Source: an uncultured virus (IMG/VR IMGVR_UViG_3300028557_000030)
Lineage: Duplodnaviria; Heunggongvirae; Uroviricota; Caudoviricetes
Virus record (IMG/VR): IMGVR_UViG_3300028557_000030
Reading direction: 5' to 3' (one strand)
Length of the DNA stretch: 20,000 bases
The notes beneath the pieces were generated by a model. That model was given only the letters and a program-made list of their open reading frames with translations. It had not been told where the DNA came from and ran no database searches. The translations under genes were made by a program, and so were the position numbers. This document shows positions 919 through 13,947 of the stretch, piece by piece. Within the stretch, counting starts at the first letter, position 1; every line of letters begins with the position of its first letter.

Positions 919-1935
919 ATGGCAGAACTATTCAAGAAGGCAGCAGTCTTTACGGACATTCATTTTGGGTTAAAGAGTAACAGCATACAGCACAATACCG
1001 ATTGTATTGAGTTTGTAGATTGGTTCATCACTAAAGCTAAGGCTGAGGGATGCGAGACATGTTTGTTCTTAGGTGACTACAATCACCATAGATCAAGCAT
1101 CAACATGCACACCCTTCAGTTTGGCCTTCGTGCATTAGAAAAACTGAACGATGCATTTGACCGAGTATATTTTATCCCTGGCAACCACGATCTCTATTAT
1201 CGTGATCGTCGGGACATTCACTCAGTCGAATGGGCAAATCATCTTCCCAACGTTACCATCGTCAATGATTGGTTTCAGCAAGGTGATGTAGTAATTGCTC
1301 CTTGGTTGGTAGGTGATGACTATAAGAAGTTGCTCAAAATGAAGGGCAAGTACCTATTTGCTCATCTGGAATTGCCGCATTTTTATATGAATGCAATGAT
1401 AGAGATGCCCGACCACGGGGAGATCAACTCAGAATACGTTTCAGGATTCGAGTGGGTCTTCTCTGGTCACTTTCATAAGCGCCAGTGCCGAAAGAACATC
1501 TGGTATATCGGTAACGCTTTCCCCCATAACTACGCAGATGCGGGAGACGACGCAAGAGGCATGATGATTCTAGACTGGGGCGGTGAACCCGAGTTTCATT
1601 CATGGCCAGGTCAACCTATCTTTCGTGTATACAAGCTAAGTGATATCTTAGATAACCCAGAGGGTCTTCTTCTTCCTAAGTCTAGTGTCAGAGTACATCT
1701 TGACATTGACATTTCGTATGAAGAAGCCAGCTTTATTCGTGAAACGCTCATTCCAAAACATGGACTAAGAGAAATGTCTTTGATTCCTATCAAGAATACA
1801 GAGTTTGCGCAGGATCTTGCTCCCGGCGAGGTGAACTTTGAGAGCGTAGACCAAATCGTTATTGATCAGATCACGAAGATCGAGAGTGATTTCTATGATC
1901 CAAAACTACTGTTAGAGATTTACCGTAACCTATGA
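919..1935 (+). CDS. gp47: gp47-like recombination nuclease subunit (Mre11/SbcD metallophosphoesterase)
   Basis: Motifs DIHFG, LGD, GNHD and SGHFH. ATGA overlap with the downstream Rad50-like gene. Confidence 0.93.
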   Translation: MAELFKKAAVFTDIHFGLKSNSIQHNTDCIEFVDWFITKAKAEGCETCLFLGDYNHHRSSINMHTLQFGLRALEKLNDAFDRVYFIPGNHDLYYRDRRDIHSVEWANHLPNVTIVNDWFQQGDVVIAPWLVGDDYKKLLKMKGKYLFAHLELPHFYMNAMIEMPDHGEINSEYVSGFEWVFSGHFHKRQCRKNIWYIGNAFPHNYADAGDDARGMMILDWGGEPEFHSWPGQPIFRVYKLSDILDNPEGLLLPKSSVRVHLDIDISYEEASFIRETLIPKHGLREMSLIPIKNTEFAQDLAPGEVNFESVDQIVIDQITKIESDFYDPKLLLEIYRNL

Positions 1936-4007
1936 TCATACTTAAGAACATCACCCTTCGTAACTTTTTATCAATTGGTGCAGTAACACAAGCTGTCAAC
2001 TTCGACAGCAAAGAACTCACGCTTATCCTAGGTGAAAATCTAGATTTAGGTGGAGATGGTTCTCGCAATGGTACCGGTAAGACTTCGCTTATGCAAGCTC
2101 TTTCCTATGCTGCGTTTGATGCCCCCATCAACAAGATTCGTAAGGATAATCTAATCAATCGTACCAACGGTAAGGGTATGATGGTTACACTAGAGTATTC
2201 TTCTAGGGGCGTTGATTACAAGATTGAACGCGGGCGCCGACCAAACACTCTTAGGTTCTACGTCAACGGGGTTGAACAGTCTGAGGACAAGGATACTGCA
2301 CAGGGCGAGAACAAGGACACACAGAAAGAGATCGAACGTACATTAGGTATGTCACATGATATGTTTAAGCATATCGTAGCGTTGAATACCTATACTGAAC
2401 CGTTTCTTTCCTTAGGGGCAGGTGAGCAGCGTAAGATCATCGAGCAATTGCTCGGTATTACTTTGCTTTCGGAGAAAGCAGAAGCAATCAAAACAAAAAT
2501 CAAGTCTACCAAAGAAACGATTGAGCAAGAGCAATTCAAAGTTAAGACTATCCAAGAAGCCAACAAGCGAGTTGAAGAACAGATTGAGAATCTTCGCCGC
2601 CGTCAGCGTCTTTGGAATGCAAAGCACAATGAAGACCTCGACAAGCTCGTCAGTGATTACGATGAACTAAGCAAGATTGATATCGTTGCCGAACTTCAAG
2701 CTCATAAAGACTTAACAATCTACAACGAAAAGAAGAAAAAGCAAGAGCGTTACGAAGCTATCCTAGCTCGTCAAACTGCTTGGTTACAGAAGCGTGATGC
2801 TGATGTTAAGGTTCTGCAAACTAGCTACGATACAAAGAGCAATATTGACATCACGGCCGAACTACAGTCTCACTATGACCTTAAGGTATATGAAGCTAGC
2901 AAGATCGAACTTGCTGCCCTCAACAAGACTATCGCTGGACTAGAGGCAACTCTAAAAAAGGATGAGAGTCTTGTAACTAAACTAGAGGGCGAGATCAGGA
3001 CACTTGAAGAAAACAAGTGTTATACTTGTGGTCAGGATCTTCACGATGAAAATCATACCAGTGTCATACACAGTAAGCGTGACCTTTTGGCCGCAGCAAG
3101 ATCAGAACTTGCCCAAACCCAAAACGAGCTAGAAAAAAATAAAAATTCATTGTTCGTTTTGGGACTTTCTCCTGTTACTCACTACAAGACTGAAGCAGAA
3201 GCAATCAAACATAGCTCTGAACTTGAAAACATTCAGAACCAAATCCACGCTAAGATGACCGAGACTGATCCGTATGTAGAACAATTGATTGAGAATTCTT
3301 GCATGATCGTTGGCACTATGCCTGTAACTCACTATGATACAGAAGCAGAAGCAATCGAACATCGTAGTGTTGTATCAAGCTTGTTAAAGCAGATCGAGAA
3401 GAAGGCAGAAGACATTGACCCATACGTTGACCAAATCAAAGAGATGGAAGCTAATGCTCTACTGACTATTGACTTTGAAATCATCAACGAACTGTCAAAG
3501 TTAGGAGATCACTTGAAGTTCTTGCTTGACTTGCTGACTAGCAAGGATAGCTTCGTTCGCAAGAAGATCATTGATCAGAACTTGTCGTATCTTAACGCAA
3601 GACTGACTCACTATCTTGACAAGATCGGTCTTCCACATACAGTCGTGTTTATGAATGACCTTTCAGTTGAGATCACTGAGTTAGGTCGTGAGTTGGATTT
3701 CGACAATTTGTCCCGGGGTGAGCGCAATCGTCTCATCCTTGGTCTGTCGTTTGCATTCCGTGATGTGTGGGAAAATCTATACTTCCCGATCAACACGCTA
3801 TTCATAGATGAACTCATCGACAGCGGACTTGATAGCATAGGTGTCGAGAATGCAATGGCAATCCTAAAAGAAATGTCACGTAGACGCAGTAAATCTATAT
3901 GGCTCGTCAGTCACCGAGAAGAACTTGCAGGACGCGTTCCTAGCGTTCTCAAGGTGATTAAAGAAAACGGGTTTACTAGTTACAATACCACGACAGATAT
4001 CACATAA
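1932..4007 (+). CDS. gp46: gp46-like recombination ATPase subunit (Rad50/SbcC)
   Basis: N-terminal NFLS, Walker A NGTGKTS, coiled coil with CYTC zinc hook (3018-3029), signature LSRGE, Walker B LFIDE, D-loop GLD, H-loop VSH. Confidence 0.94.
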   Translation: MIILKNITLRNFLSIGAVTQAVNFDSKELTLILGENLDLGGDGSRNGTGKTSLMQALSYAAFDAPINKIRKDNLINRTNGKGMMVTLEYSSRGVDYKIERGRRPNTLRFYVNGVEQSEDKDTAQGENKDTQKEIERTLGMSHDMFKHIVALNTYTEPFLSLGAGEQRKIIEQLLGITLLSEKAEAIKTKIKSTKETIEQEQFKVKTIQEANKRVEEQIENLRRRQRLWNAKHNEDLDKLVSDYDELSKIDIVAELQAHKDLTIYNEKKKKQERYEAILARQTAWLQKRDADVKVLQTSYDTKSNIDITAELQSHYDLKVYEASKIELAALNKTIAGLEATLKKDESLVTKLEGEIRTLEENKCYTCGQDLHDENHTSVIHSKRDLLAAARSELAQTQNELEKNKNSLFVLGLSPVTHYKTEAEAIKHSSELENIQNQIHAKMTETDPYVEQLIENSCMIVGTMPVTHYDTEAEAIEHRSVVSSLLKQIEKKAEDIDPYVDQIKEMEANALLTIDFEIINELSKLGDHLKFLLDLLTSKDSFVRKKIIDQNLSYLNARLTHYLDKIGLPHTVVFMNDLSVEITELGRELDFDNLSRGERNRLILGLSFAFRDVWENLYFPINTLFIDELIDSGLDSIGVENAMAILKEMSRRRSKSIWLVSHREELAGRVPSVLKVIKENGFTSYNTTTDIT

Positions 4008-4046: not shown

Positions 4047-4610
4047 ATGACATCACCTAGCAAAGCCAAAGGCTCATCGTTCGAACGAGAAGTTGCAACC
4101 TTCTTGTCAAAGACATATGACGAAAGTTTTATCAGGGCTCCCGGCTCAGGTGCATACATTGGCGGTAAGAATCAATCCCGCAAACAGTATTTGGATGAGG
4201 GTCAGATTCGTAGCTTCAAGGGCGACATCGTTCCGGGCGTGACTTTCACTAAATTCAACGCAGAATGTAAGTCATATGCAGACTTCCCTTTTCATCTTCT
4301 TTTATCCGGGGACTGCAAACAAATCGACAGTTGGCTAGACCAACTGATGGCTGTAGCAGAAACTGATGATTGCAACGTGCTATTCATGAAGTTTAATCGT
4401 AAAGGCAAGTATGTTGCTGTACAAGCAAAGTGTACTTGGGTCACAGACAACTTCATTTACTACAGTTCCGCTAAGTTCGGGGACTGGATCATCATCGAAT
4501 TTCAACACTTCTTCAAGCTCAACAAAGACCTTCTTAAAGTTTACTCAGGCTCACCTAATACAAACCTTGACACCGCGTCTACAGCTAACGTACTAACGCT
4601 CAAAACCTAA
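4047..4610 (+). CDS. PD-(D/E)xK nuclease, Holliday-junction-resolvase (Hjc)-like
   Basis: SKAKGSSFEREVA (G..FERE), R.PGSG, GDI and AECKSY (E-x-K) follow the Hjc-type pattern. Confidence 0.75.
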   Translation: MTSPSKAKGSSFEREVATFLSKTYDESFIRAPGSGAYIGGKNQSRKQYLDEGQIRSFKGDIVPGVTFTKFNAECKSYADFPFHLLLSGDCKQIDSWLDQLMAVAETDDCNVLFMKFNRKGKYVAVQAKCTWVTDNFIYYSSAKFGDWIIIEFQHFFKLNKDLLKVYSGSPNTNLDTASTANVLTLKT

Positions 4611-4619
4611 ACAAAACCA

Positions 4620-5000
4620 CAGAATCCTACATAGCTGTTTGGTCGGGGTTGCTCGACTCTCCTTGAGGACGCATGGAATACTGCGAACGGAATCTGGAGC
4701 CGAAGGTGCATTCCTTCAAAAATGCATAGGTGTTTACATCTATGGAATACCGATAGGGCCCTCGTTAGGTTAAGCGAACCCTAAATGAGTCTGTGTCGTA
4801 CTCTGTCTTGAGAACACAGAACATGCGTTGCCGAGGAATCGAAAGATAGCCTCACTACAGTCCCAGTAAACTTTACAGGGCAACCGGTAGCGTCAATCAG
4901 CATCAAAAGCTAGGTTGACGGGGAATAGACAGCAAGGGTGACGGGCCATGGCAATGTCCTAGACCATTGGTAGTGCTACATAGCACTACCATGGATTCTG
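4620..5000 (+). ncRNA. Putative large structured non-coding RNA, family unrecognised
   Basis: No ORF of 60 aa or more. About 49% GC by hand count, with A-rich flanks. Closing helix CAGAATCC/GGATTCTG, a second long-range helix (4634-4641/4926-4933) and about ten internal helices. Several G-U pairs work only on the + strand. Confidence 0.65.
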
Positions 5001-5061
5001 AACCGGCAAGTATCTTCAACAAGTTATCTTAGACATTACCATTAAAGAGAATGAAAAAGGA

Positions 5062-5112
5062 TATACCGAAACGAACGAAGTGAGTAAGGTATAAGTTGTC
5101 CGAAGGACAACT
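5062..5112 (+). other. Twin GAA-triloop hairpins (ssDNA-type structure; candidate origin or protein-recognition site)
   Basis: TATACC-GAA-[AC-GA-AC-GAA-GT-GA-GT]-AA-GGTATA, followed directly by AGTTGTCC-GAA-GGACAACT. Confidence 0.5.
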
Positions 5113-5137
5113 CTGAATGAGAGCTATGATAGAAGCC

Positions 5138-5171
5138 AAAAAAAGAGAGAACTAAATGAATAGTTCCCTCT
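5138..5171 (-). terminator. Rho-independent terminator for the minus-strand gp26-like unit
   Basis: The minus strand reads GAGGGAACTA-TTCATT-TAGTTCTCTC (one G-U pair) followed by a T7 run, immediately after the stop at 5173-5175. Confidence 0.8.
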
Positions 5172-5172
5172 A

Positions 5173-5403
5173 TTAGAAATACGGAAGTTGTGACTTCTTT
5201 GTTATCTCAAGATGTTCTTCGATAATCTTGTTTATGTCTGCTCTTTCTTGAAAAGACATATTCAGAATATCTTCGTACGTCGCTCCCCCTCGCATGTGCC
5301 ATGCCATTTCTAGGGCTGACTTTTTGATTCCTGAGACATCGTTTTCGTAGTTATCAAACAGCTTCTTAATGTCTTCAGGGGGTGATCTGAGGAGCGTTAG
5401 TCG
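5173..5403 (-). CDS. Unlisted coding frame (gp51-like / gpT-like chaperone extension), probably reached by -1 frameshift
   Basis: 76 sense codons: RLTLLRSPPEDIKKLFDNYENDVSGIKKSALEMAWHMRGGATYEDILNMSFQERADINKIIEEHLEITKKSQLPYF*. The first ATG is at 5307 (44 aa) with no SD. A terminator follows the stop. Confidence 0.7.
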   Translation of the reverse strand, partial: RLTLLRSPPEDIKKLFDNYENDVSGIKKSALEMAWHMRGGATYEDILNMSFQERADINKIIEEHLEITKKSQLPYF

Positions 5404-6224
5404 AAAAAATCCGTTGGGTTCAGTGTGATTGTCTGATCGTATTCATGCTCGCAACTTCCGCAAGTGATCTTCATTGGTTTAATCTCACTAGCTTGACGTA
5501 GTTCCGAACTACGATCTCGGATAGTAACATAAACATTGCGGTCACAGTGTCTTAGGAAATCAAGAATAAAATCCTTCTGATCTACTTTGATTGTAGGAGT
5601 CTGAATATATTCAATTGCTTGGCACAGCAAATCCATAGTAAGATCGGTGATTTTCTGTAATGACTCCTTCATCAGTTTGCTGCGATCATCTTCGTTTTCG
5701 ATAGAATCAATCTGAGAAGCTGCTCTTTGGAATTCAAATTGTTTCATTGATGCTGCGTTGATTTCTTTAAAATTAACGGACTTTAATTTTATTTTAAGAT
5801 CACCTGCGCTGAGTTCTTCTGAGAAATCAGGACTGCTGATTGACGAAAGAATGCCTACTAGGTTTATTTTATAAGTAGATGTTTCCTCACAGTTTGGGCA
5901 GCTTGACGTAAGATCCATCTCACCTGAAGAAGATGAGGCTGCTTTTATAGCAATAAGAATAGCGTCAAGGTCAATATTAGGCACTGCCCATGGGTCCTTG
6001 ATATTGGGGACACAACTTGTGATCAAGTCTGCAATTGCAGTTCCGTTAAACAACGCATCCGGTGTACGAGCAGTGATTTCATCAATAGCAGTCATCGGAT
6101 ATACTGGAATCTCGCCGATTTCGGGCATGTCCAGTGCTCCATCCGGATAGCCCTGACCATTTGATGGTAGCTTCATATATACAGATGGTCTTCTGAAATA
6201 CTGTTTTAGTGGGTTGTTGTCCAT
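5397..6224 (-). CDS. gp26-like baseplate hub assembly protein / tail chaperone
   Basis: LPS.G, PMTAIDE, DLDAILIAIKAAS, two CxxC pairs (CPNC, CGSC) and C-terminal DFF. GAGG SD upstream. Confidence 0.75.
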   Translation of the reverse strand: MDNNPLKQYFRRPSVYMKLPSNGQGYPDGALDMPEIGEIPVYPMTAIDEITARTPDALFNGTAIADLITSCVPNIKDPWAVPNIDLDAILIAIKAASSSSGEMDLTSSCPNCEETSTYKINLVGILSSISSPDFSEELSAGDLKIKLKSVNFKEINAASMKQFEFQRAASQIDSIENEDDRSKLMKESLQKITDLTMDLLCQAIEYIQTPTIKVDQKDFILDFLRHCDRNVYVTIRDRSSELRQASEIKPMKITCGSCEHEYDQTITLNPTDFFD

Positions 6225-6257
6225 GTAGTTCCTCTTAAAATTTCGGTTTTAGATTTA

Positions 6258-6282
6258 TACTAAATACATATGCTATTTAGTA
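6258..6282. promoter_or_regulatory. Overlapping opposite-strand late promoters (ACTAAATA on both strands)
   Basis: Inverted repeat TACTAAATA (6258-6266) / TATTTAGTA (6274-6282) between the divergent gp26-like and tape-measure-like genes. The same 8-mer precedes the portal gene. Confidence 0.65.
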
Positions 6283-6322
6283 GGTAAAAAAAACCTAGCT
6301 ATTTATTTTATCGGAACTGAGC

Positions 6323-13100: not shown

Positions 13101-13938
13101 CACGCAAGTCGGTACGGCAGTAGGAGATTTTGCTAGGGGTCTATTCACTAGACCCGGTCCAGATAGCACGGCTCTCAATTTTATAGGTAGGATAGAATCA
13201 GGAAACAACTATAACAAGCTAGTCGGCGGAAGGGTAAAAAATGATCCTCCGTTAACCAGTATGACTGTCGGTCAGGTAATGGCTTATCAAGATACAATGA
13301 GGGATAACGGACATGAATCAACTGCTCTTGGAAAATATCAGATTATCAAAGGAACTCTCGGTGGCATAGTCAGATCCGGAACAGTAAGTCCCAATGATCA
13401 ATTTAGTGAAACCACGCAGGATAAGGCAGCGGTTTACCTGATGAATGTGCGCGGCAGAGAGAGATTCCGATCCGGCAGACTCGGTGTAGATCAATATGCA
13501 AATAATCTTGCAAAAGAGTGGGCAAGTTTGCCGATGCCAAATGGTAGAAGTTACTATGCAGGTGTCGGCAGCAACAATAGTTTAACATCCAGAAGTGATT
13601 TTGTGAGAAGCTTGCAGGCAAGAGACGGTGGAATAATGTCAGGTCCTTCAACCGGATACCCGATCGAACTGCACGGCACTGAATTAATAATTCCAATCGA
13701 CTCCAACTCAATTCTTTCTAAACTAGCTTCAACCAGCGCAGAGGCTGTAGCAAAAGACTTGCAACGTAAGAGTGTCAAGGCTGTTCCTAAACCAACTTCT
13801 ACTACTGGTATTCCTAAAAAAACAGTCGGAATCAGCAAAGAAATGATTTATGCATTGTCTGCGAAGTTTGATAGTGTAGTCAACAAGATAGAAAGCACTG
13901 ATCAAGTTCAGAAGAAGTTGTTGAAACAGGTGCTTTGA
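10189..13938 (+). CDS. Tape-measure/baseplate-hub-like virion protein B with C-terminal lambda-R-like lysozyme/lytic transglycosylase
   Basis: 1249 aa paralog of the upstream gene. Motifs IESGNNYN, STALGKYQII, F...TQDKAA and EWASLP, followed by ARDGG..SGP.TGYP.ELHGTE.IIP. Confidence 0.72.
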   Translation: MDPEQQEIQAAMRELSMLLSQQTSLLGGTVKSLADTIPALKNGTQAQTANTQAEKENNNVIDRFAEANTKAASIVNEKSQIYKEAFGTGVSALMGFKNAVLSSQEGLVKYSNVIDTLGTGAYNIGQNFGFLGTAAGGILSVFGKVVNELLKVTDGVVGIRDNFTKTSGIIPITMTEIGKLAANARFSLDNMATLGREMENLGGKMIGLGGYAGEGAVKFMKIAAVSDNVRREFGRMGINQDALLHLQAKYVETQAISGNAYVNQSKSIEQIQKESLVYAKNMTVLSSLTGKSADALQEEINQVQLVFEEQVATMAENAKIRKLQDEGRHSEAAALKLEQDNRKKMIETYTALYGPDKANQMARVMRTGYYDSLTSGLAMLQMRGGSDPLSFTQGLKTSANAQADLLAYSEKLDSAISANAEAFSVAFEVLGSEFGKKVGAEEQVVGAMMRRQGIDVSKDFARILAEATAKSEEDTDTLANSVETARSVEREVQGKVQNALLDVQSALLEGPDSIKAFIDKFLNKNLLLMGAVSAAAIALGTIVAAKGLQALLGRGGAAAGAAASVAEIAEDQLLDKNGRPLRGGARSARIAKLTGGGPAQVGKPGGFGASLQSVASALSNAGKAGPQVILGAAALATAIASFGAGIAGAVAVIGKALPSLANGLKAFNDLDGKNLQQAGLGMAGLGIGILAMGAGTMAQAFGTIIRFFTGDKDPLTQASEMLFRLQAVNLDRKKIEDNGASLMAYAKAMAAVAALGAGAGIADAMRSYYDGIGKLFGATPPYKDLEKFSQLQVDPAKVKINSDSFVEFSRAMASYSGYGDGLSVITSSLAQATVSFFNTNPPEKQVVEFSKLKIDPKQTSINATGFVEFSRAMAAYKGGVGLREAVSIIAGAKLSMLFGMDGPIKSFENFAAINVGPKAAENSQAFLNFSKAMGVLSGGSGGGWFNNLVSNLREPVARTVARTVDSGRELVTQVGTAVGDFARGLFTRPGPDSTALNFIGRIESGNNYNKLVGGRVKNDPPLTSMTVGQVMAYQDTMRDNGHESTALGKYQIIKGTLGGIVRSGTVSPNDQFSETTQDKAAVYLMNVRGRERFRSGRLGVDQYANNLAKEWASLPMPNGRSYYAGVGSNNSLTSRSDFVRSLQARDGGIMSGPSTGYPIELHGTELIIPIDSNSILSKLASTSAEAVAKDLQRKSVKAVPKPTSTTGIPKKTVGISKEMIYALSAKFDSVVNKIESTDQVQKKLLKQVL

Positions 13939-13939
13939 C

Positions 13940-13947
13940 ACTAAATA
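13940..13947 (+). promoter_or_regulatory. Late promoter ACTAAATA upstream of portal
   Basis: Intergenic, identical to the 6259 and 6274 motifs, and similar to T4 TATAAATA. Confidence 0.65.

What the first reader, a model, noticed from the sequence alone, without database searches (positions are those of the whole stretch)
4620..5000. Unrecognised ~380 nt multibranched structured RNA directly downstream of a PD-(D/E)xK nuclease
Seen in sequence (paired by hand): outer helix CAGAATCC 4620-4627 / GGATTCTG 4993-5000. Inner long-range helix GCTGTTTG 4634-4641 / TAGACAGC 4926-4933. Inside it: GTCGGG/CTCGAC (4642-4657); CTCC/GGAG (4659-4699) enclosing CGCA/TGCG; TGCATT/AATGCA (4707-4726); TAGGTG/CATCTA (4727-4742); a domain closed by TACCG 4748-4752 / CGGTA 4885-4889 that holds hairpins 4761-4789, TCTGTGT/ACACAGA (4790-4820) and GTTGCC/GGCAAC (4827-4884, with an ATC-GAAA-GAT GNRA loop); and CGTCAATC/GGTTGACG (4891-4920). 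A 3' hairpin TGGTAGTGCT/AGCACTACCA follows (4968-4991). These helices nest compatibly, and the G-U pairs favour the + strand. A pseudoknot GGCCC 4757-4761 / GGGCC 4943-4947 is possible as an alternative. Inference: a ribozyme-scale ncRNA in an otherwise gene-dense core region, beginning 10 nt after the nuclease stop and probably co-transcribed with it. It could be an RNP partner or guide scaffold for the nuclease, an origin or primer RNA, or a virion-assembly RNA. I cannot tell these apart.
Basis: partly seen in the sequence, partly recalled or inferred. Interest (0 to 1): 0.88.

Follow-up and report, generated by a model that had tools for sequence, protein, structure and literature searches.

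The report
New pseudoknotted RNA of jumbo phages
A roughly 380-base RNA with a strongly conserved, doubly knotted fold sits at the same spot in hundreds of uncultured giant-phage genomes and matches no known RNA family, so it is very likely a new functional RNA whose job is still unknown.

Summary
The feature is real. Window 4641-5009 (+) holds a structured non-coding RNA. It is present once in each of 5 near-complete 333-364 kb T4-like jumbo-phage genomes.

On 92 distinct core sequences, 97.4% of cells pair, against 81.9% in shuffles (0 of 500 reach it) and 32-40% with slid partners. 41 of 55 pairs show compensatory changes. G-U outnumbers A-C by 177 to 26, which fixes the + strand.

Its two long-range closing helices and its proposed pseudoknot do not. 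Instead, a 12-nt strand (4921-4932) pairs with an internal loop (PK1) and with a hairpin loop (PK2).

- No Rfam 15 family matched, and ARAGORN found no tRNA or tmRNA.
- Six literature searches found no description.
- 0 of 5 cultured relatives carry it.
- A link to the nuclease is not separable from synteny: the nuclease lies upstream in 69 of 70 loci, and gp26 converges downstream in 72 of 72.
- No + strand gene follows the RNA, so it is not a leader.

Best reading: an independent, trans-acting structural RNA, acting as an RNP or an RNA assembly. A ribozyme is the main rival. Function is untested.

The parts
4047..4610 (+). Context only: PD-(D/E)xK nuclease gene (187 aa) upstream of the RNA
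   Evidence: Pfam PDDEXK_15, E 3.2e-24. Upstream on the same strand in 69 of 70 loci with at least 700 nt of upstream DNA.
4619..4627 (+). 5' motif ACAGAATCC (ACAGAACCC in relatives). Clade-specific, at variable distance from the core. Role unknown.
   Evidence: Present in 22 of 75 distinct sequences. Not enriched elsewhere in the window. Its pairing with 4993-5000 is not kept family-wide (48%).
4629..4640 (+). Moderately conserved leader (consensus about ACAATTnGTTTG). No pairing partner established. Resembles the CTAAATAG motif upstream of late genes.
   Evidence: Right-justified consensus of 87 distinct upstream sequences. Tested partners failed. Motif comparison.
4641..4658 (+). Hairpin a (GGTCGGG / CTCGACT, loop GTTG)
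   Evidence: 7 of 7 pairs have double changes. 66 distinct versions all fold as one hairpin, median z -2.56.
4659..4699 (+). Element b: CTCC/GGAG and GA/TC closing an irregular hairpin with inner stem 4671-4673/4682-4684
   Evidence: Outer helix 99.0% paired. Pair 4667-4688 is GC:36 GU:7 AU:5.
4702..4717 (+). Optional hairpin GAAGG / CCTTC with invariant loop TGCATT, present only in the window's subclade
   Evidence: Insertion seen in the alignments. GAGAG/CTCTC variant in L011. Folds.
4725..4744 (+). Hairpin c (CATAGGTG / CATCTATG). Variable sequence and length. GNRA tetraloop in many relatives.
   Evidence: 62 distinct versions, median z -3.05. GNRA loops in 29 of 62. Covarying pairs 4726-4743 and 4729-4740.
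4748..4889 (+). Core junction domain closed by H_A (4748-4752 / 4885-4889). Holds H_B (4754-4758/4779-4783 plus 4762-4764/4775-4777), H_C (4785-4787/4822-4824 plus 4790-4797/4813-4820), H_D (4827-4832/4879-4884) and H_E (4833-4836/4850-4853).
   Evidence: helices 88.6-100% paired. RNAalifold predicts the same nested helices on the unfitted alignment, except H_E: 38 pairs, 26 with compensatory changes.
4854..4878 (+). Highly conserved 3' side of the H_D internal loop (ACTACAG-TCCC-A..AAACTTTACAG). Carries the 5' strand of PK1.
   Evidence: Invariant columns listed (ACTAC, AC.TTA.AG).
4891..4920 (+). Hairpin H_F (4891-4898/4913-4920 plus 4899-4901/4909-4911)
   Evidence: 98.3% paired. 9 of 11 pairs have double changes.
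4861..4864 (+). PK1, 5' strand (TCCC), pairs with 4921-4924
   Evidence: 96.2% paired, 4 of 4 pairs covary (UA:54 CG:21 AU:9 GC:2 at the first pair). Not part of the model used for the alignment.
4803..4808 (+). PK2, 5' strand (CTGTCT, apical loop of H_C), pairs with 4927-4932
   Evidence: 100% paired, 5 of 6 pairs covary. 536 of 540 cells pair on the MAFFT alignment.
4921..4932 (+). 'Staple' strand GGGAATAGACAG: 3' strands of PK1 (4921-4924) and PK2 (4927-4932), 2 nt apart
4936..4965 (+). Probable hairpin H_J with a conserved GGCAA/GCAA-type loop. Not established.
   Evidence: Seen by eye in A3. Only 36-46% paired on the MAFFT columns. Per-sequence folds have median z -0.87.
4968..4991 (+). 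Hairpin H_G (TGGTAGTGCT / AGCACTACCA), nearly invariant in sequence
   Evidence: 99.1% paired. 5 of 9 pairs never vary, 2 have double changes.
4992..5009 (+). Conserved 3' tail (TGG-CTTC..A.CGGCAAT in relatives). Conservation ends after about 5009.
   Evidence: Alignments. blastn conservation limits.
5397..6224 (-). Context only: convergent gp26-like baseplate hub gene
   Evidence: Pfam T4_baseplate, E 6.4e-17. Downstream on the opposite strand in 72 of 72 loci with at least 1900 nt of downstream DNA.

Best explanation
Window about 4641-5009 (+) encodes a stand-alone, trans-acting structured non-coding RNA. It is a single-copy core gene of a large clade of uncultured, roughly 350-kb T4-like jumbo phages.

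Shown:
- It folds into three 5' hairpins (a, b, c).
- It has a junction domain closed by ACCG/CGGU that carries arms H_B, H_C and H_D/H_E, followed by hairpin H_F.
- A 12-nt 'staple' strand pairs at once with the conserved internal loop of H_D (PK1) and with the apical loop of H_C (PK2). This clamps two arms of the junction.
- Two 3' hairpins follow.

Inferred: the roughly 50 invariant core positions lie largely in joining regions and in sequence-invariant helices, and the peripheral hairpins often end in GNRA loops. Together these build a compact tertiary core that is recognised by a partner.

My commitment on mechanism (about 0.35): it works as an architectural RNA. It would be either the RNA subunit of an RNP with a phage or host protein, or a self-associating RNA particle. 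It would be made or processed from the end of the gp47-gp46-nuclease transcription unit and would act independently of the neighbouring nuclease.

That it is a real, selected RNA structure of a new family I hold at about 0.95.
For: Structure:
- 97.4% of 4824 cells pair on 92 distinct sequences, against 81.9% in shuffles (0 of 500 reach it) and 31.7-40.0% with slid partners.
- 41 of 55 pairs have changes on both sides.
- Both pseudoknots were left out of the alignment model. PK2 pairs in 100% of cells and PK1 in 96.2%. The same holds on the unfitted MAFFT alignment and in the RNAalifold prediction.

Strand: 177 G-U cells against 26 A-C cells.

Not coding: core lengths fall in all three classes mod 3, 45/27/23.

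Selection: 50 invariant columns in 48 sequences that are under 86% identical, while the flanking proteins drop to 42-60% identity.

Distribution:
- At least 119 viral contigs.
- 157 of 158 loci hit by nhmmer.
- 79 of 80 loci chosen by the nuclease alone.
- One copy in each of 5 of 5 genomes of 333-364 kb.

Independence from the nuclease:
- L074 keeps the RNA without the nuclease.
- gp26 linkage is 72 of 72, nuclease linkage 69 of 70.
- PA5oct, SCTP-2 and Phosso have the nuclease homologue but no RNA.

Not a leader: every ORF between the RNA and gp26 that I take to be a real gene, in the five relatives I examined, lies on the - strand.

Scaffold-type features: the H_G helix is sequence-invariant, and 29 of 62 distinct hairpin-c versions have GNRA loops.
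Against: - No read-level transcript evidence. Only contigs from RNA-labelled metagenome libraries touch the core, and they cannot show ends, strand or level.
- No promoter-like site was found by the sigma-70 scan near the RNA.
- A terminator-like site lies within 300 nt downstream in only 6 of 76 loci. The 5' and 3' ends are therefore inferred from conservation alone.
- No partner protein was identified.
- Nothing separates a scaffold from a catalyst or a ligand sensor.
- The leader, the tail and H_J have no established pairing.
- Covariation cannot tell intramolecular from intermolecular pseudoknots.
Confidence: 0.4

Rival explanations
1. It is a ribozyme. The pseudoknot-stapled junction with invariant joining regions would form an active site. 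The RNA would either cut itself out of the operon transcript or process or modify other RNAs.
For: - Size, two pseudoknots and about 50 invariant positions, largely in unpaired joining regions, are typical of catalytic RNAs (established knowledge, not tested).
- No terminator lies between the nuclease gene and the RNA, and terminator-like sites are rare after it (6 of 76). The mature ends therefore probably need processing.
Against: - No match to any ribozyme family of Rfam 15, even at E up to 10.
- The helix order differs from group I introns and RNase P.
- No cleavage site or substrate can be named.
- No activity was tested.
Confidence: 0.2
2. It is the RNA partner (cofactor, guide or regulator) of the adjacent PD-(D/E)xK nuclease.
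For: - The RNA lies about 10-100 nt downstream of the nuclease gene on the same strand in 69 of 70 loci, and in 79 of 80 loci picked by the nuclease alone.
- No terminator lies between the two.
Against: - The linkage is no tighter than to the convergent gp26 gene (72 of 72), so synteny alone explains it.
- L074 keeps the RNA with other genes in the nuclease's place.
- Three cultured phages with a homologous nuclease have no such RNA.
- The nuclease belongs to a resolvase-type phage family next to gp46/gp47, not to a known RNA-guided nuclease family.
- No hypervariable guide-like segment was identified.
Confidence: 0.07
3. It is a decoy or anti-defence RNA that titrates a host protein, for example an RNA-binding defence or RNA-processing factor.
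For: - It is phage-restricted. The one GTDB pattern scan gave 9 places. nhmmer matched six of them over only 22-30 nt, and matched nothing in the other three.
- It is single-copy and has an invariant hairpin H_G that could be a protein-binding site.
Against: - No resemblance to a host RNA was found: Rfam none; ARAGORN found no tRNA or tmRNA.
- Decoys seldom need so elaborate and so conserved a core.
- The hosts are unknown.
Confidence: 0.1
4. It is a cis-acting element of the transcript: a 3'-UTR stabiliser, or a sensor that controls read-through into the convergent gp26 unit (antisense control).
For: - It lies at the end of a + strand unit facing a - strand unit.
- It is not followed by its own terminator in most loci.
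Against: - It is far larger and more conserved than 3' stabilisers.
- A strong - strand terminator (5171-5144) and a small - strand ORF separate it from gp26.
- No + strand gene follows it.
- No match to a riboswitch family.
Confidence: 0.06
5. It acts at the DNA level (replication origin, packaging site) or as an origin R-loop or primer RNA.
For: It sits between the recombination-replication genes (gp47, gp46, resolvase-type nuclease) and the structural genes.
Against: - Compensatory changes that preserve pairing, with G-U tolerated on one strand only (177 against 26), and two pseudoknots point to a folded RNA, not duplex DNA.
- The window shows no long direct or iterated repeats of origin type. 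This is from reading the sequence; it was not tested separately.
Confidence: 0.03

Closest known systems
GOLLD and ROOL RNAs (large ornate RNAs linked to phages and prophages; cryo-EM shows RNA-only multimers; bioRxiv 10.1101/2024.12.08.627333, seen as search listing and abstract only)
   Same: A large, intricately folded, phage-associated ncRNA with strong covariation and no known function. It is not a leader of a downstream gene. Its pseudoknot pairs could in principle be intermolecular.
   Different: - No sequence or structure match to either Rfam model, even at E up to 10.
- Shorter, at about 370-390 nt.
- Found in lytic-type T4-like jumbo phages at a fixed core-genome position.
- Multimerisation was not tested.
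phi29-family packaging RNA (pRNA)
   Same: A phage-encoded structured RNA that acts in trans as part of a virion-assembly machine and uses loop-loop pairing. Here the RNA borders the structural gene block.
   Different: - No Rfam match.
- About twice to three times the size.
- Much higher sequence conservation.
- T4-type terminase systems are not known to need an RNA (established knowledge).
- No evidence of portal binding.
omega-RNA / reRNA of IscB, IsrB and TnpB (structured RNA encoded beside its nuclease)
   Same: A structured RNA of hundreds of nucleotides, with a pseudoknot, immediately beside a nuclease gene and probably on the same transcript.
   Different: - The nuclease is a 187-aa PDDEXK_15 resolvase-type protein, not a RuvC/HNH protein.
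- No transposon ends and no identifiable guide segment.
- The RNA persists without the nuclease in L074.
- Nuclease homologues exist without the RNA.
RNase P RNA and group I introns (ribozymes of similar size with pseudoknotted cores)
   Same: About 300-400 nt, a multi-helix junction, long-range pseudoknots, invariant joining regions and GNRA-capped peripheral arms.
   Different: - No hit to any of their Rfam models.
- The order of helices and pseudoknots differs.
- It does not interrupt a gene.
- The 9-mer ACAGAAYCC recalls the conserved 3' region of bacterial RNase P RNA. This is from memory only. Here it is clade-specific and has no conserved partner.

Membership tests
Any Rfam 15 family (4227 models) | Score at or above the family's gathering threshold | tested here: not met
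   0 matches in the whole 20-kb window. In 4400-5500 at E up to 10 there were only three matches of 15-16 bits, far below threshold, and none covered the RNA. Across 16 diverse homologues at E up to 5 there were two unrelated weak matches and none recurred.
Group I intron | P3-P7 pseudoknot topology with P4-P6 and P3-P9 domains | tested here: not met
   The order of helices supported by covariation is H_A, H_B, H_C, H_D/H_E, PK1-5', H_D-3', H_A-3', H_F, PK1-3', PK2-3'. That is not the group I order (the group I order is recalled).
Group I intron | Interrupts a host gene, with exons on both sides | tested here: not met
   It lies after the stop codon of the nuclease gene and before a convergent gene. 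It is present in all relatives, with no intron-less allele seen.
Bacterial RNase P RNA | Match to RNase P covariance models; P4 pseudoknot between conserved regions CR-I and CR-V | tested here: not met
   No Rfam match. The CR-V-like 9-mer at 4619-4627 occurs in only 22 of 75 distinct sequences and has no conserved partner.
tmRNA / tRNA-like RNA | tRNA-like domain and tag reading frame detected by ARAGORN | tested here: not met
   0 tRNA or tmRNA genes in the window.
GOLLD / ROOL | Match to the family covariance model | tested here: not met
GOLLD / ROOL | Homo-oligomeric RNA-only assembly | not testable with these tools
   Covariation cannot tell intramolecular from intermolecular pairing. This needs native gels, SEC-MALS or cryo-EM.
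phi29-type pRNA | Match to the pRNA model; intermolecular loop-loop pairing; binding to the portal | tested here: not met
   No Rfam match. The other two features are not testable here.
OMEGA-type guide RNA (omega-RNA / reRNA) | Encoded beside an IscB/IsrB/TnpB-type (RuvC) nuclease within a transposon end, with a variable guide at one end | tested here: not met
   The neighbouring protein is PDDEXK_15. The RNA is kept without it in L074. No guide-like hypervariable end was defined.
Riboswitch / cis-regulatory leader | Lies in the 5' UTR of a regulated gene on the same strand | tested here: not met
   Downstream there are only - strand genes, and the convergent gp26 gene follows in 72 of 72 loci.
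Protein-coding gene | A reading frame kept across relatives | tested here: not met
   Core lengths fall in all three residue classes mod 3, 45/27/23 of 95 rows. Substitutions follow base pairing.

The most novel reading that the evidence does not exclude
This would be a new class of large functional phage RNA, essential to a widespread clade of roughly 350-kb jumbo phages. It would be either a new ribozyme or a self-assembling RNA particle in which the 'staple' pseudoknots PK1 and PK2 form between molecules, as the kissing contacts of ROOL and GOLLD cages do. That would give T4-like giant phages an RNA-based machine with no protein or RNA counterpart in cultured relatives.
Probability: 0.3. 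Interest if true: 0.92.

Novelty: categorically new. Interest (0 to 1): 0.82.

Why it matters
Large, highly conserved, pseudoknotted RNAs are rare. Almost every one whose function was solved turned out to be a ribozyme, a guide or scaffold RNA, or an unexpected RNA assembly.

- This one is defined by unusually strong covariation.
- It is a single-copy gene at a fixed position in complete 333-364 kb phage genomes.
- It is abundant in viral metagenome contigs.
- It is absent from Rfam, from the literature I could search, and from all five cultured relatives I tested.

It therefore gives RNA biologists a well-specified new family for probing, cryo-EM and activity screens. It gives phage biologists a marker and a candidate essential RNA for an uncultured jumbo-phage lineage.

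Tried and rejected
1. **Outer helix P1 (4620-4627/4993-5000).** 48% paired family-wide. The 5' motif is present in only 22 of 75 distinct sequences. In 16 of those 22 the 3' strand reads TTCT or TCTA, compatible with a subclade-specific 4-5 bp helix. It is not a family feature.

2. **Inner helix P2 (4634-4641/4926-4933).** 72% paired, mostly by wobble, and mutually exclusive with PK2 at 99%. A switch between the two cannot be excluded in the window's subclade.

60% paired.

4. **Partners for the leader.** GTTTG with CAAGG (4933-4937) pairs in 62%. TTG with the tail CAA pairs in 48%. RNAduplex of the 5' and 3' flanks gave no consistent register.

5. **H_J as drawn from the window.** 36-46% paired on MAFFT columns and median z of only -0.87. 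I kept it as 'probable'.

6. **Public sequencing runs.** Three runs were laid, as contigs only.
   - One 169-nt contig is identical to 4809-4976 (X2, probably DNA).
   - One covers 4837-5003 (X1).
   - In the one run recorded as RNA (X3), fragments of relatives lie on 4774-4880 and 4963-4998, and also on the gp46 gene.
   - This shows no ends, no strand and no expression level.

7. **blastn against phage isolates.** No match to 50,697 records.

8. **Cultured relatives.** nhmmer and model R1 on PA5oct, SCTP-2, Phosso, Vibrio phage 2.275.O and Escherichia phage Turkey5 gave no homologue. The positive control was 5 of 5 IMG/VR genomes.

9. **PA5oct ncRNAs.** The four RNA-seq-defined ncRNAs of PA5oct lie at other loci (PMC7318152, passages read).

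10. **GTDB genome scan with the 20-mer pattern.** 9 places. nhmmer matched six of them over only 22-30 nt, and found nothing in the other three. None has the neighbouring genes.

11. **Promoter and terminator.** No sigma-70-like promoter near the RNA. The TTGACA-N18-TACTAA that I read at 4567-4596 fails the scan's rule and is not kept in relatives. The resemblance of the leader to the CTAAATAG motif upstream of late genes remains a lead only.

12. **Earlier notes of this scan.** None found.
Full report
**What the window is.**
- Pfam places a gp47-like phosphoesterase at 919-1935 and a gp46/Rad50-like ATPase at 1932-4007.
- A PDDEXK_15 nuclease lies at 4047-4610, and a gp26-like baseplate hub at 5397-6224 on the - strand.
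- Further on come a T4-type portal, a prohead protease and a gp23 capsid protein.
- The window belongs to a 39-kb fragment of an IMG/VR virus record.
- By capsid and nuclease protein similarity, the nearest cultured phages are jumbo phages: PA5oct, Vibrio phage 2.275.O, Phosso and SCTP-2, all below 67% identity.
- Several related contigs are near-complete genomes of 333-364 kb, two of them with terminal repeats.
- The finding lies in the 786-nt gap between the nuclease stop and the convergent gp26 gene.

**Is the observation there, and is it more than chance?**
- The listed complementary segments are in the sequence.
- The + strand of 4611-5010 folds to -138.7 kcal/mol. Shuffles give -112.2 +/- 6.4, so z = -4.13, with 0 of 100 shuffles as good.
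- The - strand gives z = -2.33.
- The real test is comparative, and it follows.

**Relatives.**
- A protein-anchored scan with the nuclease gave 39 viral loci.
- The non-coding stretch after the gene is conserved at 65-92% nucleotide identity. The strongest block matches window about 4740-5017.
- nhmmer found the element in 157 of 158 loci. The one miss, L028, ends 29 nt after the nuclease gene.
- That set holds 99 distinct sequences.
- A second, independent sample of 80 loci, picked only by the nuclease protein out of 587 matching stretches, carries the RNA on the same strand in 79 of 80. The miss, L227, again has no downstream DNA.
- Each of five near-complete genomes has exactly one copy.

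**Structure of the core.**
- I aligned 48 representatives that are under 86% identical over window 4743-4935, using MAFFT with no structure input (A1). There are 50 invariant columns, and mean column identity is 63%.
- RNAalifold on this alignment predicts helices H_A, H_B, H_C, H_D and H_F: 38 pairs, 26 of them with compensatory changes.
- A column-pair covariation scan of my own also brought up two long-range helices that no nested fold can hold:
  - 4861-4864 with 4921-4924 (PK1);
  - 4803-4808 with 4927-4932 (PK2).
- Counted on A1, the 55 pairs are 95.8% paired. Shuffles give 81.2% (0 of 500 reach the observed value) and slid partners give 32.5-40.0%. 39 pairs have changes on both sides.
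- I then built covariance model R1 from the nested helices only and aligned the window plus 99 loci. All 100 sources matched, with E from 6e-11 to 5e-55.
- On the 92 distinct rows:
  - 97.4% of 4824 cells pair, against 81.9% in shuffles (0 of 500) and 31.7-40.0% when slid;
  - 41 of 55 pairs have double changes;
  - PK2 is 100% paired with 5 of 6 pairs covarying;
  - PK1 is 96.2% paired with 4 of 4 covarying, although neither pseudoknot was in the model.
- G-U cells outnumber A-C cells by 177 to 26, so the + strand is the folded one.
- Core lengths fall in all three classes mod 3, which rules out a conserved reading frame.

**Anatomy.**
- H_A (ACCG/CGGU) closes a junction that bears three arms:
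  - H_B;
  - the long hairpin H_C;
  - H_D, which continues into the variable arm H_E and has a 25-nt, almost invariant, one-sided internal loop.
- After H_A comes hairpin H_F.
- Directly after H_F, a 12-nt strand (GGGAAUAGACAG in the window) pairs with that internal loop through its first four bases. After two unpaired bases, its last six bases pair with the apical loop of H_C.
- This 'staple' must pull two arms of the junction together.

**The 5' and 3' domains.**
- Upstream lie hairpin a, the irregular hairpin b (CUCC/GGAG) and hairpin c. On an unfitted alignment these are 84.1% paired, against 30-47% when slid, and 14 of 18 pairs have double changes.
- Hairpins a and c and arm H_E exist in 62-69 distinct versions. 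Almost all fold as single hairpins, with median z from -2.6 to -3.0. GNRA tetraloops cap 29 of 62 distinct c hairpins.
- A short GAAGG/CCUUC hairpin with loop UGCAUU is an insertion of the window's subclade.
- Downstream, hairpin H_G is 99.1% paired and almost invariant in sequence.
- A hairpin H_J with a GGCAA/GCAA-type loop is probable but not established.

- The outer helix pairs in 48% of cells and the inner helix in 72%, the latter mostly by wobble.
- The inner helix uses the very bases that form PK2 in 99% of cells.
- The 5' motif ACAGAAYCC occurs in 22 of 75 distinct sequences, at variable distance from the core. It may form a short subclade-specific helix with the 3' UUCU (16 of 22).
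- The conserved leader before hairpin a has no partner that I could find.

**What it is not.**
- Rfam 15 has no family for it: 0 hits at gathering thresholds in the window, nothing relevant at E up to 10, and nothing recurrent in 16 homologues.
- ARAGORN finds no tRNA or tmRNA.
- It is not a leader. Between the RNA and gp26, relatives carry only - strand genes that I take to be real, and gp26 converges downstream in 72 of 72 loci.
- It is not in 50,697 phage isolates by blastn.
- By R1, it is not in the whole genomes of five cultured relatives.
- It is not in GTDB representative genomes by the one pattern scan. That scan gave 9 places. nhmmer matched six of them over 22-30 nt only, and matched nothing in the other three.
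- Six full-text searches listed no paper that describes it.
- Passages of the PA5oct omics paper (PMC7318152) place that phage's four ncRNAs elsewhere.
- Passages of a 2026 preprint on prokaryotic non-coding space (10.64898/2026.10.21.760802) do not contain the word 'phage'. I did not see the supplements of either paper.

**Relation to the nuclease.**
- The nuclease lies upstream on the same strand in 69 of 70 loci. That is no more than the synteny of the whole block.
- L074 keeps the RNA behind a radical-SAM/SPASM gene pair and a SegE-type GIY-YIG gene.
- PA5oct, SCTP-2 and Phosso encode homologous nucleases, annotated as resolvases, without the RNA.
- I therefore rate the partner or guide idea at about 0.07.

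**Expression and ends.**
- Nothing direct is available.
- No sigma-70-like site lies near the RNA, and the only clear terminator (5171-5144) serves the - strand.
- A terminator-like site follows the RNA within 300 nt in only 6 of 76 loci. The mature RNA is therefore probably cut from a longer transcript, or ends by other means.
- The leader (CCUACAUAGC) resembles the CTAAATAG motif that I saw upstream of the portal gene, gp26 and the 6323 gene. This hints at a late promoter, but it is only a resemblance.
- Contigs of three public runs with RNA-type library labels touch the core, but they cannot show transcription.

**How it most likely works.**
- Shown: a selected RNA fold with a pseudoknot-stapled junction, invariant joining regions, a sequence-invariant hairpin and GNRA-capped variable arms. 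It is single-copy, specific to one phage clade, and is not a leader.
- Inferred: it acts in trans through its tertiary structure.
- My estimates:
  - architectural role, as an RNP subunit or a self-associating RNA: about 0.35-0.4;
  - ribozyme: 0.2;
  - decoy: 0.1;
  - nuclease partner: 0.07;
  - cis element: 0.06;
  - DNA-level or primer role: 0.03;
  - the remainder is unassigned.

**Novelty and verdict.**
- This is a new RNA family with no detectable relation in sequence, model score or helix topology to any described class.
- Its covariation support is comparable to that of well-established structured RNAs.
- I rate it categorically new as an RNA class, with high interest. The caveat is that function and expression are untested.

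Noticed in passing
window 5173-5307 (-): A 44-aa ORF just downstream of gp26 is conserved in relatives as a 40-58 aa ORF (shared ...MRGG.SYED.LNMS..ER..I.K.I...L..TKKSG.PFF). It has no Pfam family. It accounts for the second conserved block of the gap (window about 5172-5400).
   Followed up: partly
window 5144-5171 (-): A strong intrinsic-terminator-like hairpin (11 pairs plus a T-run) serves the - strand gp26 unit. It lies about 135 nt beyond the end of the RNA. A weak CsrB-model match (15.8 bits, against a 71-bit threshold) overlaps it and is due to this hairpin.
   Followed up: partly
window 13935-13945, 6250-6300 (both strands): The motif CTAAATA(G/C) recurs upstream of the portal gene, of gp26 and of the 6323 gene. 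It is a candidate late-promoter core, analogous to T4's TATAAATA (recalled). The RNA's leader, CCTACATAGC, resembles it.
   Followed up: partly
L074:745-2120: In one relative the nuclease's place is taken by a radical-SAM gene (PF04055), a SPASM-domain ORF and a SegE-type GIY-YIG homing endonuclease (PF19835, E 9e-36). The RNA is kept.
   Followed up: partly
L075:2779-3276, L109:1938-2456, L116:2779-3336, L098:2735-3478 (all on the strand opposite to the RNA): Some relatives carry extra - strand genes inserted between the RNA and gp26. One is a 165-185 aa ORF with no Pfam match. One is a DUF6071 protein. This spot appears to be an insertion hot spot.
   Followed up: partly
L161:2479-3991 (PA5oct) and L163:2987-4000 (Phosso): The cultured relatives have a 1-1.5 kb stretch beside their resolvase gene with only tiny annotated ORFs or none. 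Parts of it fold far better than shuffles on both strands (z down to -8). These parts correspond to long local inverted repeats of 18-26 nt arms. There is no homology to the RNA described here.
   Followed up: partly
window 4567-4596 (+): TTGACA-N18-TACTAA lies inside the 3' end of the nuclease gene, about 25 nt upstream of the conserved 5' motif. It was not listed by the promoter scan, and the first hexamer is not kept in distant relatives.
   Followed up: partly
window 4659-4667 and 4693-4699: Element b places CCUCCUU, identical to the anti-Shine-Dalgarno core of 16S rRNA (recalled), opposite GGAG within one helix. It may be a coincidence.
   Followed up: no
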